Shown one piece after another: positions 16,717-61,610 of a stretch of 64,000 nt of DNA. How positions within the stretch are numbered: the stretch's first letter is position 1; every line of letters starts with the position of its first letter. A model generated the notes under the pieces. It did not search any database, had not been told where the DNA came from, and saw nothing but the letters and a program-made list of their open reading frames with translations. The position numbers and the translations under genes were made by a program. Origin of the DNA: Eledone cirrhosa (taxonomy: Eukaryota); the NCBI GenBank assembly GCA_964016885.1, contig OZ024765.1:12958001-13022000 (forward strand), in the 5' to 3' direction.

Positions 16717-16781
16717 TATTTTATCTGATGAAAGCGCACCATAATTTGCTTTGGTGTCCTTGAAATATGTATAATGAAATA
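16717..16781 (+). ncRNA. Type I hammerhead ribozyme (minimal stem III)
   Basis: TATTTTAT CTGATGA AAG C GCACCA TAATTTGCTT TGGTGT C CTT GAAA TATGTATA ATGAAATA. Confidence 0.8.
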
Positions 16782-17059
16782 AATATGGTTTTATAAATAT
16801 AGTTTCCATTTATTAATATATCGTATTTTTACTCCAAAAATTTGTTGAGTGCTTTATATCAGTTATAAAATATTTGCTTGTTGTATCCCAACAATTTAAA
16901 TATAACCTCTACATATATATATATATATATATATATATGTATATATATATATACACATACAGAGAGAGAGAAAGGAAGAGATAGGCATATATTTACTTTA
17001 GGTGCTGTTGTTATTGTTGCTGCTGTGTTGAATCTGATCGGTTGACTAATGATGTGACA

Positions 17060-20000
17060 CCTCACCACACCACCACCGCCACCACCACCACCACCACCAC
17101 CACCACCACCACCACCACGAGACAGTCAACTACCACCACCACCACGAGACAGTCAACCGTGTCTGTTTCCTCTCTCTCTCTCTCTCTCTCTCTCTCTCTG
17201 TTGAACAACCGTGACACCTCCATCACCATCACTTATTGCAGATACCACAACAACTACTACTACAACAACAATAATAGCATCATCAACTACAACAACAGTA
17301 GCAACTACAACAACAACAGTAGCAACTACTACAACAACAACAGTAGCAACTACTACAACAACAACAACAATAACAGTAGCCACCACTACTACAACAGTAG
17401 CAACTACAACAACAACAGTAGCAACTACTACAACAACAACAGTAGCAACTACTACAACAACAACAACAATAACAGTAGCCACCACTACTACAACAGTAGC
17501 AACTACAACTACAGCAGTAGCAACTACTACAACAACAACAACAACAACAGTAGCAACAACAACAGTAGTAACAACAACTACTACAACTACAGCAGTAGCA
17601 ACTACAGCAACTACTACAACTACTACAACAACAACAGTAGCAAGAACGGCTGCAGCTGTCATAACAATTGTCATCATTATCATCATTGACTTAAACAACA
17701 TCCTCATCATCACCGCCACCATCAATATCCTCACCACCACCACTACCAACACCACCAACACCAACATCTCCACCACCACCAACAACACCAACAACACCAC
17801 CACCACCAACACCACCACCAACACCACCAACACCAACATCTCCACCACCACCAACACCACCACCACCAACACCACCACCAACAACACCAACAACACCACC
17901 ACCAACACCAACACCAACAACACCAACACCACCACCAACACCACCACCACCACCACCACCACCACCAACACCACCACCACCAACACCAACAACACCAACA
18001 CCACCACCAACACCAACACCACCAACAAACACCAACATCTCCACCACCACCAACTACACCACCCACACCAACACCAACACCACCAACACCACCACCACCC
18101 ACACCATCACCACCACCAACACCCACACCATCACCACCACCACCAACAACATCATCACCACCAACAACAACATCACCACCACCACCACCAACACCATCAC
18201 CACCACCACCAACAACACCATCACCACCACCACCACTAACAACATCACCACCACCACCACCATCACCACCACCACCACTAACAACATCACCACCACCACC
18301 ACCATCACCACCACCACCAACAACACCATCACCACCACCACCACTAACAACATCACCACCACCACCACCATCACCACCACCACCACCAACACCATCACCA
18401 CCACCACCAACAACACCATCACCACCACCACCACTAACAACATCACCACCACCACCACCATCACCACCACCACCACCACCACCAACACCATCACCACCAC
18501 CACCAACAACAACATCACCACCACCACCACCAACACCATCACCACCACCACCAACAACACCATCACCACCACCACCACTAACAACATCACCACCACCACC
18601 ACCATCACCACCACCACCACCACCAACAACATCACCACCACCACCACCACCATCACCACCACCACCAACAACATCACCACTACCACTAACACCACTAACA
18701 ACACCACTAACAACATCACTAACAACATCACTAACACCATCATCACCACCACCAACAACAACATCACTAACACCATCATCACCACCACCAACAACAACAT
18801 CACTAACACCATCATCACCACCACCAACAACAACATCACTAACACCATCATCACCACCACCAACAACAACATCACTAACACCATCATCACCACCACCAAC
18901 AACAACATCACTAACACCATCATCACCACCACCACCAACAACAACATCACTAACACCATCATCACCACCACCAACAACAACATCACTAACACCATCATCA
19001 CCACCACCAACAACAACATCACTAACACCATCATCACCACCACCAACACCATCACTAACACCATCATCACCACCACCAACACCATCACTAACACCATCAT
19101 CACCACCACCAACAACAACATCACTAACACCATCATCACCAGCACCAACAACATCACTAACACCATCATCACCACCACCAACAACAACATCACTAACACC
19201 ATCATCACCACCACCAACAACAACATCACTAACACCATCATCACCACCACCAACAACATCACTAACACCATCATCACCACCACCAACAACAACATCACTA
19301 ACACCATCATCACCACCACCAACACCATCATCACTAACACCATCACCACCACCAACAACAACATCACTAACACCATCATCACCACCACCAACAACATCAC
19401 TAACACCATCATCACCACCACCAACAACAACATCACTAACACCATCATCACCACCACCAACAACAACATCACTAACACCATCATCACCACCACCAACACC
19501 ATCACTAACACCATCATCACCACCACCAACACCATCATCACTAACACCATCACCACCACCAACAACAACATCACTAACACCATCATCACCACCACCAACA
19601 ACAACATCACTAACACCATCATCACCACCACCAACACCATCATCACTAACACCATCATCACCACCACCAACAACAACATCACTAACACCATCACCACCAC
19701 CACCAACAACAACATCACTAACACCATCATCACCACCACCAACACCATCATCACTAACACCATCATCACCACCACCAACACCATCATCACTAACACCATC
19801 ATCACCACCACCAACACCATCATCACTAACACCATCATCACCACCACGAACAACAACATCACTAACACCATCACCACCACCACCAACAACAACATCACTA
19901 ACACCATCATCACCACCACCAACACCATCATCACTAACACCATCATCACCACCACCAACACCATCATCACTGACACCATCATCACCACCACCAACAACAA

Positions 20001-21900
20001 CATCACTAACACCATCACCACCACCACCAACAACAACATCACTAACACCATCATCACCACCACCAACACCATCATCACTAACACCATCATCACCACCACC
20101 AACAACAACATCACTAACACCATCACCACCACCAACAACAACATCACTAACACCATCATCACCACCACCAACAACAACATCACTAACACCATCATCACCA
20201 CCACCAACAACAACATCACTAACACCATCATCACCACCACCAACAACAACATCACTAACACCATCATCACCACCACCAACAACAACATCACTAACACCAT
20301 CATCACCACCACCAACAACAACATCACTAACACCATCATCACCACCACCAACAACAACATCACTAACACCATCATCACCACCACCAACAACAACATCACT
20401 AACACCATCATCACCACCACCAACAACAACATCACTAACACCATCATCACCACCACCAACAACAACATCACTAACACCATCATCACCACCACCAACAACA
20501 ACATCACTAACACCATCATCACCACCACCAACACCATCATCACTAACACCATCATCACCACCACCAACAACAACATCACTAACACCATCATCACCACCAC
20601 CAACACCATCATCACTAACACCATCATCACCACCACCAACAACAACATCACTAACACCATCATCACCACCACCAACACCATCATCACTAACACCATCATC
20701 ACCACCACCAACAACAACATCACTAACACCATCATCACCACCACCAACAACAACATCACTAACACCATCATCACCACCACCAACACCAACATCACTAACA
20801 CCATCATCACCACCACCAACAACAACATCACTAACACCATCATCACCACCACCAACAACAACATCACTAACACCATCATCACCACCACCAACAACAACAT
20901 CACTAACACCATCATCACCACCACCAACAACAACATCACTAACACCATCATCACCACCACCAACAACATCACTAACACCATCATCACCACCACCAACAAC
21001 AACATCACTAACACCATCATCACCACCACCAACAACAACATCACTAACACCATCATCACCACCACCAACAACAACATCACTAACACCATCATCACCACCA
21101 CCAACACCATCATCACTAACACCATCATCACCACCAACAACATCACTAACACCATCATCACCACCACCAACACCATCACCACTACCACCAACACCACTAA
21201 CAACATCACTAACACCACTAACAACACCATCACCCACACCACTATCAAAAACACTAACACCACCACCACCACCACCACCACATATACCACTACCCCTACT
21301 ACTGCTGCCGCTGATGTCACTACTGCTGCAATTGATGTTGTTGTTGTTGCAATAGTTATTACTTCGTACGGACAGCTACATCAGAGACGGCAGAGACAAC
21401 AACAAGAATACCACCACCACCACTACCACCACTACTACTACCACTACCACCACACCTACCACCACCACCACTACTACTACTATTGTAAAAACAAGGATAT
21501 TTAACCACCACCACCGTCAGCATCACTTACAATAACAATACCACCACTACTACTACTACTACTACTACTACTACCAGTACTACTACTACCAGTACTACTA
21601 CTACCAACAACAAGGATATTACCACCACCACCACCACCACCACCATCGTCAGCATCACCTATAACAACAACAACAACAGCCACACCAAGATTTTACAACC
21701 ACAATCATCACCCTCATCAACAATACCACCACCACTACTACTACTACTACTACTACTACTACTACTAACATCTGTAAGAACAAGGATATTACAATCATCA
21801 TCATTATCATCATCAACAACAACAACAACCACGCCAAGATATTACGACCATAATCATCATCATCATCATCAGCAACTATAACACTAACCAACATCATTGT
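17060..21900. repeat. ACC/AAC/ATC/ACT triplet-derived array with a 36-bp higher-order repeat (about 18710-21170)
   Basis: Unit ATCACTAACACCATCATCACCACCACCAACAACAAC, roughly 65-70 copies. It produces the spurious 1164-aa and 1088-aa ORFs. Confidence 0.95.
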
Positions 21901-59840: not shown

Positions 59841-60954
59841 TTATATATATATATATATATATATATATATATATATATATATATATATATTTTCTCGTCT
59901 ACTTATATATATATATATATATATATATATATGTATGTATATATATATATATATATGTATGTATATATATATATATATATATATATGTATATATGTATGT
60001 ATATATGTATGTATATATGTATGTATATATGTATGTATATATGTATGTATATATATATGTATATATGTATGTATATATATATATGTATATATATATGTAT
60101 ATATATATGTATATATATATGTATATATATATATATGTATGTATATGTATATATGTATGTATATATGTATATATGTATGTATATATGTGTATATATATAT
60201 ATATGTATATATGTATGTATATATATATGTATGTATGTATATATATATATGTATATATGTATGTGTATATATATATATATATATATATATACACATGTAT
60301 GTATATATATATATATATATATCCACATGTATATATATATATATATACACACATGTATATATATATATATATATATACACATATATATATATATATATAT
60401 ATATATATATATATATATATATATATATATATACACACACACATGTATGTATATATACATACATGTATGTGTGTGTATATAATTTGTGTCCCATGCCTGT
60501 TATATTGTGTCTAATGAAAATGTGTGGGTATAAACCGGATACTAAGATTTAAAATAATAATAAAAATAATGACAATAATTTGGATAATATTTTAAGTAAA
60601 CATGAGAAATGTGCTTGCTGTACATTATCATTGTAAATATCACTACTGTATATAGTGTCTCCCTTTCTCCTTTGCCTCCTTACTCCTGGGTGGATCATGG
60701 GGTCAAGGTCTTCAGTCACACCTTCCAACTGACCGTATCATCATCATCATCATCATCATCATCGTTTAACGTCTATCTTCCATGCTAACATGGGTTTAGA
60801 CGGGAATTGTCCCACTTGAGGCAAGATTGGTTGGGTCACCGTGTCTCGCTCGTATAGCACTGTATATATATGTATATATATATATATATATATATATTTC
60901 GTTTCTGAATTTGTTTAGCAAGATTCTTTATCTGAAATCGTGTGTTGAAACCAA

Positions 60955-61393
60955 TATTGTTATACTTTGGGAGGGTCATGTTGCCAATAAGAAACACACG
61001 CACCAGTTGCTTTCACTTCAATTTAATTTATTATATATTTATAAATTTACAAATTTATAAATTTCTGGTTGGTTGGTTGGTTCCACAACCAGATAGTTGT
61101 TTATATATATATAGTCATAGTTCTTTCGTCACACACTCTGTGACCTCATCAGTGACTGGGGATTTCTTTCTTCGTTTCTGTGCCTTTCCTTTCCACTGAT
61201 GAGGTCACAGAGTGTGTGACGAAAGAACTATGACTATATATATATAAACAACTATCTGGTTGTGGAACCAACCAACCAACCAGAAATTTATAAATTTGTA
61301 AATTTATAAATATATAATAAATTAAATTGAAGTGAAAGCAACTGGTGCGTGTGTTTCTTATTGGCAACATGACCCTCCCAAAGTATAACAATA
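60955..61393. repeat. About 200-bp-arm inverted repeat with a 40-bp spacer
   Basis: 60955-61154 is the reverse complement of 61194-61393. The right end abuts (TA)n. Confidence 0.95.
61113..61157 (-). ncRNA. Minimal type I hammerhead ribozyme
   Basis: Minus strand AGTCA CTGATGA G GTCACA GAGTG TGTGAC GAAA GAAC TA TGACT. The mirror copy at 61194-61235 lacks most of the 5' strand of stem I. Confidence 0.75.
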
Positions 61394-61555
61394 TATATAT
61401 ATATATATATATATATATATATATATATAACGAAGGAAATGTGGTAAGGAACCAGGTGGACCATAACGCACCAAAGTACTCAATACTTGGGGTAGTAGAG
61501 TGGGTAAAGTAATTAAGTCAAATATTTAAGATTTGGCTTCGTTTATTAAAGATGT

Positions 61556-61610
61556 ACTGCTATATATATTTCGGTGACAGCCATCATTGGCTGTGACCTC
61601 TTCAGGCAGT
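61556..61610 (-). ncRNA. Type I hammerhead ribozyme, intact
   Basis: Minus strand ACTGC CTGAAGA GGT C ACAGCCA ATGA TGGCTGT C ACC GAAA TATATATA GCAGT. Confidence 0.9.

What the first reader, a model, noticed from the sequence alone, without database searches (positions are those of the whole stretch)
16717..61610. Stem II covariation with an invariant C-C mismatch at the fourth position
Seen: five distinct stem II sequences keep a 3-bp basal helix, then a C-C mismatch, then a long helix: AAG-C-GCACCA/TGGTGT-C-CTT (16717), AGG-C-ATA/TAT-C-CCC (24513), GGT-C-ATAGCCAT/ATGGCTAT-C-ATC (34371), GGA-C-GTACTG/CAGTAC-C-TCT (41833), GGT-C-ACAGCCA/TGGCTGT-C-ACC (61556). The broken copy at about 42330-42370 (-) also fits (TGT-C-ACC/GGT-C-ATT). 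All five share GAAA-TAT(A/G)TATA. Inference: selection acts on RNA structure, and the C-C may be a tertiary contact or an RT/protein recognition feature that defines a hammerhead subclass I do not recognise as described.
Basis: partly seen in the sequence, partly recalled or inferred. Interest (0 to 1): 0.8.

Follow-up and report, generated by a model that had tools for sequence, protein, structure and literature searches.

The report
Free cytosine in retroelement hammerhead ribozymes
About 100,000 copies of a predicted self-cutting RNA motif at the ends of one lineage of Penelope-like jumping genes keep one cytosine unpaired in the middle of an otherwise paired stem, which likely marks a contact point for the element's own protein.

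Summary
The five stems are real; one has an A·C instead of its first base pair, and a sixth intact inverted copy was missed. They are type I, dimer-type hammerhead motifs at the 3' ends of Hydra-clade-like Penelope retroelements (about 104,000 pattern matches in G000). Covariation holds: across 15 family representatives the pairs flanking position 4 are paired in 15/15 and 14/15 with changing letters, and position 4 in 0/15. But the C·C pair is not invariant. Only the 5' C (C10.4) is. Its partner is C, A (2,942 matches, mainly one amplified subfamily) or U (a family of roughly 22,000). Paired versions are about 1% scattered variants and founded no family seen. The trait spans proteins 38-57% identical that form one branch. 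It was absent from 36 metagenome loci with hammerhead-like hits and 26 published Hydra rows, where position 4 is usually paired. Coding constraint was tested and rejected. Function is untested; recognition by the element's RT-endonuclease is the likeliest reading, helped by 3' ends at fixed distances from the motif. I found no description in print, but two key papers were unavailable. New variant of a known kind.

The parts
16711..16788 (+). Type I hammerhead motif, family A; core 16725-16773, C10.4 16735 opposite C 16758, predicted cut after 16773 (AUA); stem I 8 bp + bulged A + further pairs
24513..24578 (+). Hammerhead motif, family B; A·C at position 1, C10.4 24531 opposite C 24555; (TA)n starts 49 nt after H17
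24403..24468 (-).
34371..34426 (-). Hammerhead motif, family C; C10.4 34411 opposite C 34391; 5-bp GC-rich stem I; (TA)n 50 nt after H17
41833..41899 (-). Hammerhead motif, family D; C10.4 41881 opposite C 41856; (TA)n 51 nt after H17
42331..42370 (-). Broken copy, resembling family M: CUGAUGA and stem II with C·C (42360/42336) remain; GAAA, stem III and the 3' strand of stem I are deleted
61556..61610 (-). Hammerhead motif, family E; C10.4 61595 opposite C 61576; (TA)n 131 nt after H17 (long-tail end)

Best explanation
The window copies are 5'-truncated 3' ends of a Penelope-like retrotransposon lineage whose hammerhead motif keeps C10.4 unpaired in a long stem II, and this free C is likely a recognition point for the element's own RT-endonuclease protein. 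Shown: the motif sits in both terminal repeats of full elements (hammerhead, about 270 nt, ORF, 0.7-2.3 kb, hammerhead). Stem III is a palindrome that does not fold alone, the flanking pairs covary, and the base opposite C10.4 is C, A or U and not G in any amplified family seen. Inferred: two motifs of one tandem transcript pair through stem III and cleave after AUA. The protein would bind at the opened helix around C10.4 (the next pairs favour R-Y-A), help the ribozyme fold, and sit at a fixed distance from the two places where reverse transcription starts (about 50 and about 135 nt downstream). Source elements that pair C10.4 would lose out, so no paired family amplified. The single window copies are probably inert remnants.
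For:: C10.4 in 15/15 representatives, paired in 0/15; neighbouring positions vary and pair; paired variants are 371 + 576 of 80,632 and 27 of 23,996; the listed rows are spread over all families; 7 of 10 paired-variant loci with an inverted partner have an unpaired partner arm, as expected for mutation after insertion; family K searched with position 4 free, 88 of 100 listed rows C·C; 12 copies with an unpaired C are one side of a branch against 13 outgroups (SH-aLRT 100), with 38-57% identity between the deepest families; by family state, 0 changes at 10.4 against 2-4 at the 5' positions 1-3, 5 and 6; 185 of 201 copies with a (TA)5 end within 150 nt end at 43-62 or 119-140 nt from H17, across families with unrelated intervening sequence (201 of 296 copies had such an end). 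Frangione 2024 (PMC11167929, passages and second half of the main text): a Poseidon hammerhead cleaves only with its protein, and RT starts at two internal sites that bound the tail.
Against: No binding or cleavage data. Frangione 2024 also found hammerhead mutants did not affect insertion in vitro. Some paired variants are present in both arms of one insertion (3 of 10 loci, i.e. 2 insertions; also L039 and a listed pair), so pairing does not strictly block insertion, or these are RT errors. C10.4-G11.4 is the commonest state in published Hydra rows (16 of 26, by eye), so C10.4 may be inherited rather than newly selected. A10.7-U11.7 also showed 0 changes on the 17-row tree, so C10.4 is not the only conserved letter. 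The 15 representatives are related, and most were first found with a pattern that required C at 10.4; the permutation p-values ignore relatedness. Fixed 3'-end distances may reflect a conserved module length, not binding at C10.4.
Confidence: 0.5

Rival explanations
1. The free C is an RNA-only element. It either makes a tertiary contact with stem I, near where loop 2 meets stem I in canonical hammerheads, or acts as a hinge that lets a long stem II pack beside stem I in the dimer.
For: Position 4 is about where the canonical 4-bp helix II ends and the loop-bulge contact begins (PMC4209133 text; PMC12192606 passages). Families A and B have a bulged purine after 8 bp of stem I.
Against: No invariant base in the 20 nt upstream or 30 nt downstream across 15 families; best 13 of 15. 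Stem I ranges from 4-5 GC-rich pairs to 8 or more AU pairs. Outgroup Hydra-like hammerheads have continuous stems of 8-11 bp with no hinge.
Confidence: 0.27
2. Frozen accident plus weak selection against an over-stable hairpin. The ancestor's C10.4-G11.4 pair lost its G once, and any mismatch is kept because it eases RT passage or refolding.
For: C-G at position 4 is common in relatives. Pairing adds about 4-7 kcal/mol to stem II in 13 of 15 representatives. The trait maps to one branch. The partner drifts among C, A and U.
Against: The mismatch does not move and the 5' base does not change, while each neighbour changed several times. Stem II stability already ranges from -2 to -13.5 kcal/mol among families.
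Confidence: 0.17
3. The C is conserved as part of a DNA-level signal in the terminal repeat, such as a promoter or an endonuclease recognition site.
For: pLTRs carry promoters (PMC6765202 passages). The 5' arm has a loose C-R-Y-A consensus.
Against: A DNA motif on one arm does not explain why the opposite base avoids G while all neighbours keep pairing.
Confidence: 0.05
4. Coding constraint: as in the Anolis Poseidon element, the ORF starts in stem II and C10.4 is a second codon position.
For: An AUG lies inside CUGAUGA, in frame with the ORF in L313 and L314; precedent in PMC11167929.
Against: The homologous Met is 263-273 nt downstream, behind several in-frame stops in all 4 tandem copies examined. 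Three of 15 families have CUGAAGA with no AUG. The short frames differ in length and sequence.
Confidence: 0.01

Closest known systems
Minimal type I hammerheads of metazoan Penelope-like elements (Cervera and de la Pena 2014, PMC4209133)
   Same: CUGANGA / GAAA / NUH core, long helix II, short palindromic helix III suited to dimers, location in pLTRs, many solitary and inverted copies, several covarying families per genome.
   Different: No extra base between A9 and 10.1; G10.1-C11.1 in only 3 of 15; a conserved unpaired C at the 4th position. In their 56-row alignment (read by eye) only single examples have a 4th-position mismatch (one S. purpuratus C·A after the extra base, one Clonorchis U·U), and none is described as conserved.
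Hammerheads of Hydra-clade PLEs (Craig et al. 2021, PMC8557442, File S2)
   Same: Host protein motifs (DKT, CxCx5C, C-terminal GIY-YIG-like VVY..YVG, CxxC), (TA)n targeting, relaxed 10.1-11.1 position (U·U, G-U, A-U), 8-9 nt palindromic stem III.
   Different: None of 26 Hydra rows has an unpaired C at position 4; 16 have a C-G pair there. Hydra-1_Obim has a different stem III (ACCA-A-UGGU) and a continuous stem II. Elements here are 3.3-3.9 kb between repeats, against generally under 3 kb.
Canonical type I hammerheads with a loop 2-stem I contact (S. mansoni type; non-LTR retrozymes, PMC7229834)
   Same: Type I topology; a departure from pairing about four steps from the core.
   Different: Stem II continues beyond the mismatch; no conserved stem I bulge; motifs sit on ORF-bearing elements, not in short tandem repeats.
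PAc Poseidon hammerhead (Frangione et al. 2024, PMC11167929)
   Same: PLE hammerhead upstream of two 3' end positions that bound a tail.
   Different: There the ORF starts in stem II; here it starts about 270 nt downstream, and the tail is about 85-90 nt rather than 30-40.

Membership tests
Metazoan PLE minimal hammerhead | Conserved core CUGANGA, GAAA, NUH with three helices | tested here: met
   N7 varies (U, A, G, C seen); triplet AUA
Metazoan PLE minimal hammerhead | Short palindromic helix III (dimer type) | tested here: met
   no hairpin alone, self-duplex -2.2 to -10.5 kcal/mol
Metazoan PLE minimal hammerhead | Location in the terminal repeats of an RT-EN element | tested here: met
   L312-L314 have hammerhead-ORF-hammerhead on one strand
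Metazoan PLE minimal hammerhead | Extra base between A9 and 10.1 (consensus feature) | tested here: not met
   the unbulged register pairs in all families
Metazoan PLE minimal hammerhead | G10.1-C11.1 (consensus feature) | tested here: not met
   3 of 15
Hammerhead ribozyme | Self-cleavage | not testable with these tools
   no assay available
Hydra-clade PLE | DKT motif, CxCx5C linker, C-terminal GIY-YIG with CxxC and CxH | tested here: met
   read by eye against the description and proteins; Pfam scan gave no hit
Hydra-clade PLE | Insertion into (TA)n | tested here: met
   201 of 296 copies have (TA)5 within 150 nt of H17
Hydra-clade PLE | RWK motif; length generally under 3 kb | tested here: inconclusive
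   one search shows RWR, RWI, RWT; repeat spacing is 3.3-3.9 kb
Hydra-clade PLE | Phylogenetic placement with named Hydra proteins | not tested
   the published sequences were only viewed and are not in my trees; outgroups are unnamed relatives
Canonical type I hammerhead / non-LTR retrozyme | 4-bp helix II with loop 2-stem I contact; short tandem repeats without ORF | tested here: not met

The most novel reading that the evidence does not exclude
The free C10.4 and the adjacent R-Y-A helix are the binding site by which this lineage's RT-endonuclease grips its own ribozyme, gating cleavage and measuring off the two reverse-transcription start sites. It would be the first defined protein-recognition element on a natural retroelement hammerhead, with C·C, C·A and C·U families as a ready-made mutational series.
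Probability: 0.3. Interest if true: 0.7.

Novelty: new variant of a known kind. Interest (0 to 1): 0.42.

Why it matters
Why Penelope-like elements keep weak hammerheads, and how their protein assists them, is open. A single nucleotide held unpaired across proteins only 38-57% identical gives a precise, cheap target for that question, with natural variants as controls. The lineage is also very abundant: about 104,000 motif matches in 3.0 Gb. For comparison, 126,247 type I motifs were reported for axolotl (PMC7229834) and about 9,000 minimal ones for X. tropicalis (PMC4209133). Rfam does not detect them. It remains a lineage-specific detail of a known ribozyme class until tested.

Tried and rejected
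Rfam: whole-window scan showed only microsatellite-driven miRNA hits among the 150 rows listed of 330; no hammerhead model hit two copies at E up to 10. Pfam: no hit for three ORFs. Bulged-base register for stem II: fits only families A and B, rejected. Coding constraint: rejected. Invariant tertiary partner in the flanks: none found. Amplified paired subfamily: suspected for family K, rejected (3 G-C and 1 C-G of 100 listed). Viral contigs: 2 matches, no stem II, chance. The bystander scan added no independent test of position 4, as its only out-of-sample rows were 4 window copies. Monomer folding gave the drawn stem II in about 9 of 15 representatives and alternative folds in the rest (C, C2, J, K, L, M); these are single decayed copies and I did not use this as evidence. 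The first tree (quick search only) held 7 of 17 labelled rows that were themselves paired variants; it was redone with unpaired copies only. R-scape was not available. Literature searches found no description. Lunse et al. 2017 and Martick and Scott 2006 are not held; figures and bioRxiv supplements were not visible, and any of these could show the feature. Earlier scan notes: nothing on this genome or sequence; the 8 shown concern other genomes and features.
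Full report
Observation. The five motifs are at the stated places. Exact positions of C10.4 and the opposite base are. The copy at 42331-42370 keeps CUGAUGA and stem II but has lost GAAA, stem III and half of stem I. No RT match was found inside the window, so these are 3' stumps ending in (TA)n.

Genome-wide counts. The window is G000:C26:12958001-13022000 in a 3.0 Gb assembly. With the tail GAAATATRTATA: C..C 71,321 (reversed control 3); 5' base not C 4,546 (partly artefacts from a second CTGATGA in one family's loop); 5' C with 3' base not C 4,765, made up of C·A 2,942, C-G 371 and C·U 1,452 by subtraction; G-C 576. 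C·A is mostly one amplified subfamily with a short loop, plus a second small family. A bystander copy led to the tail GAAATGYRCATA: 23,996 matches, control 0. Of the 100 rows listed, 92 are C·U, 7 C·C and 1 U·C; only 27 of all 23,996 are C-G. The C·U figure of roughly 22,000 is extrapolated from those 100 rows. Family K, searched with position 4 free, gave 157 matches, and 88 of the 100 listed are C·C. So the conserved thing is C10.4 left unpaired; its partner is C, A or U.

Covariation. In 15 natural copies chosen as family representatives, pairing was 12/15 at position 1, 15/15 at 2, 15/15 at 3 (G-C 3, A-U 4, U-A 8), 0/15 at 4 (C·C 12, C·A 2, C·U 1), 14/15 at 5, 14/15 at 6, 12/15 at 7 and 14/15 at 8. 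Stem I pairs 14/15 at its first three positions, as an AU-rich or a GC-rich version. The shuffle p-values ignore relatedness, the family split is my own, and most families were first met through a pattern that required the C; searches are the checks that did not require it. Among loci from the paired-variant searches, 10 had an inverted partner; in 7 the partner arm is unpaired and in 3 (two insertions) it shares the paired state. Most paired variants therefore arose after insertion, and a few at or before it.

Host element. ORFs upstream of the motifs encode an RT followed by a GIY-YIG-like endonuclease with DKT, CxCx5C and CxxC motifs. These match by eye the Hydra clade of Craig et al. 2021 (section read, proteins viewed). 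Pfam gave no hit. The best named relative is an Argonauta hians protein at 39%, so the genome is likely from an octopod; that is inferred, not tested. Full units have hammerhead, 263-273 nt, ORF, 3' region, hammerhead. Stops lie between the motif and the start Met in all 4 tandem copies examined, which rejects the coding explanation suggested by the Anolis element. In a quick tree of 12 copies whose own position 4 is unpaired and 13 outgroups, the 12 are one side of a branch (SH-aLRT 100); the deepest families are 38-57% identical; C·A family F is sister to or within C·C family D; 5 rows are under half filled. The earlier, larger tree agrees but held 7 paired-variant copies labelled by family. 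Families H, I, J, K, L and M have no usable protein and are unplaced.

Outgroups. Of 79 metagenome loci encoding relatives, 36 had a hammerhead-like hit and none had C·C at position 4; by eye none has an unpaired C there in its best register. None of the 26 Hydra rows of Craig's File S2 has it, and 16 have a C-G pair (by eye). Cervera's 56-row alignment has isolated 4th-position mismatches in two single examples. A second lineage in G000 (3,429 matches) has mismatches at positions 1-2 instead.

Mechanism. Shown: stem III is a palindrome that folds only as a duplex; 185 of 201 copies with a (TA)5 end within 150 nt stop at 43-62 or 119-140 nt from the predicted cut; no flanking base is invariant. 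Inferred: dimer cleavage releases unit-length RNA from tandem transcripts, as proposed by Cervera and de la Pena. The element's protein would read the free C in an opened helix, consistent with the protein-assisted cleavage and the two RT start sites reported by Frangione et al.. That paper also found cleavage dispensable for insertion in vitro. I put protein recognition at 0.5, an RNA-only contact or hinge at 0.27, a stability-maintained accident at 0.17, a DNA signal at 0.05 and coding at 0.01.

What I saw of each paper. PMC4209133: parts 1-2 of 4 of the text and parts 1-2 of 3 of the supplement, no figures. PMC8557442: passages, section 11, supplement parts 1-2 and search hits. PMC11167929: passages and the second part of the main text. 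bioRxiv 10.64898/2026.07.22.740005: part 1 of 5 and passages; supplements closed. PMC6765202, PMC7229834, PMC6962438 and PMC12192606: passages. Lunse 2017 and Martick 2006: nothing, not held. Hammerhead numbering is the standard scheme, recalled. Nine searches found no description of this feature.

Verdict. A real, selected, lineage-specific variant of the known Penelope hammerhead, more exactly a free C10.4 than an invariant C·C. Function untested. Interest 0.42.

Noticed in passing
window 61124-61152 (-) and 61196-61224 (+); weaker copy 35835-35862 (+): A second hammerhead type with the classical extra base after A9 and G10.1-C11.1, as an inverted pair; similar copies in several other loci.
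   Followed up: partly
window 23538-23593 (+): Degenerate member of another lineage (stem III ACCWWUGGU, like Hydra-1_Obim), 3,429 matches in G000, with mismatches at stem II positions 1-2, including C·C at position 2 in some subfamilies.
   Followed up: partly
G000 loci: Two discrete 3' ends about 50 and about 135 nt after the predicted cut in most families, giving a tail of about 85-90 nt; a TACTCC motif lies at the tail's start in families B, G, K and U.
   Followed up: partly
just 3' of stem I, e.g. window 16778-16783: AATAAA or ATTAAA within 5-14 nt of H17 in 11 of 15 families; a possible polyadenylation signal right after the cut site.
   Followed up: no
L312, L313, L314 (G000:C1:4679500-4684300, 5049600-5053700, 12249200-12253600): Tandem full-length units of the C·U family; the family looks young (27 paired variants in 23,996).
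   Followed up: partly
family D loop, e.g. L050:4772-4820: Some family D copies hold a second CTGATGA inside the stem II loop, which inflates pattern counts.
   Followed up: no
window 10258-10743, 53338-53937, 53966-54170: Tandem copies of a SINE-like repeat that resembles an octopus SINE (recalled, not tested).
   Followed up: no
window 30030-31384, 55081-56510, 17696-21281: Minisatellite arrays (76-bp and 44-bp units) and a 3.5-kb CAC/CAA-rich array.
   Followed up: no
window 2226-2283 (-): tRNA-like Rfam hit, 34.8 bits, possibly a SINE head.
   Followed up: no
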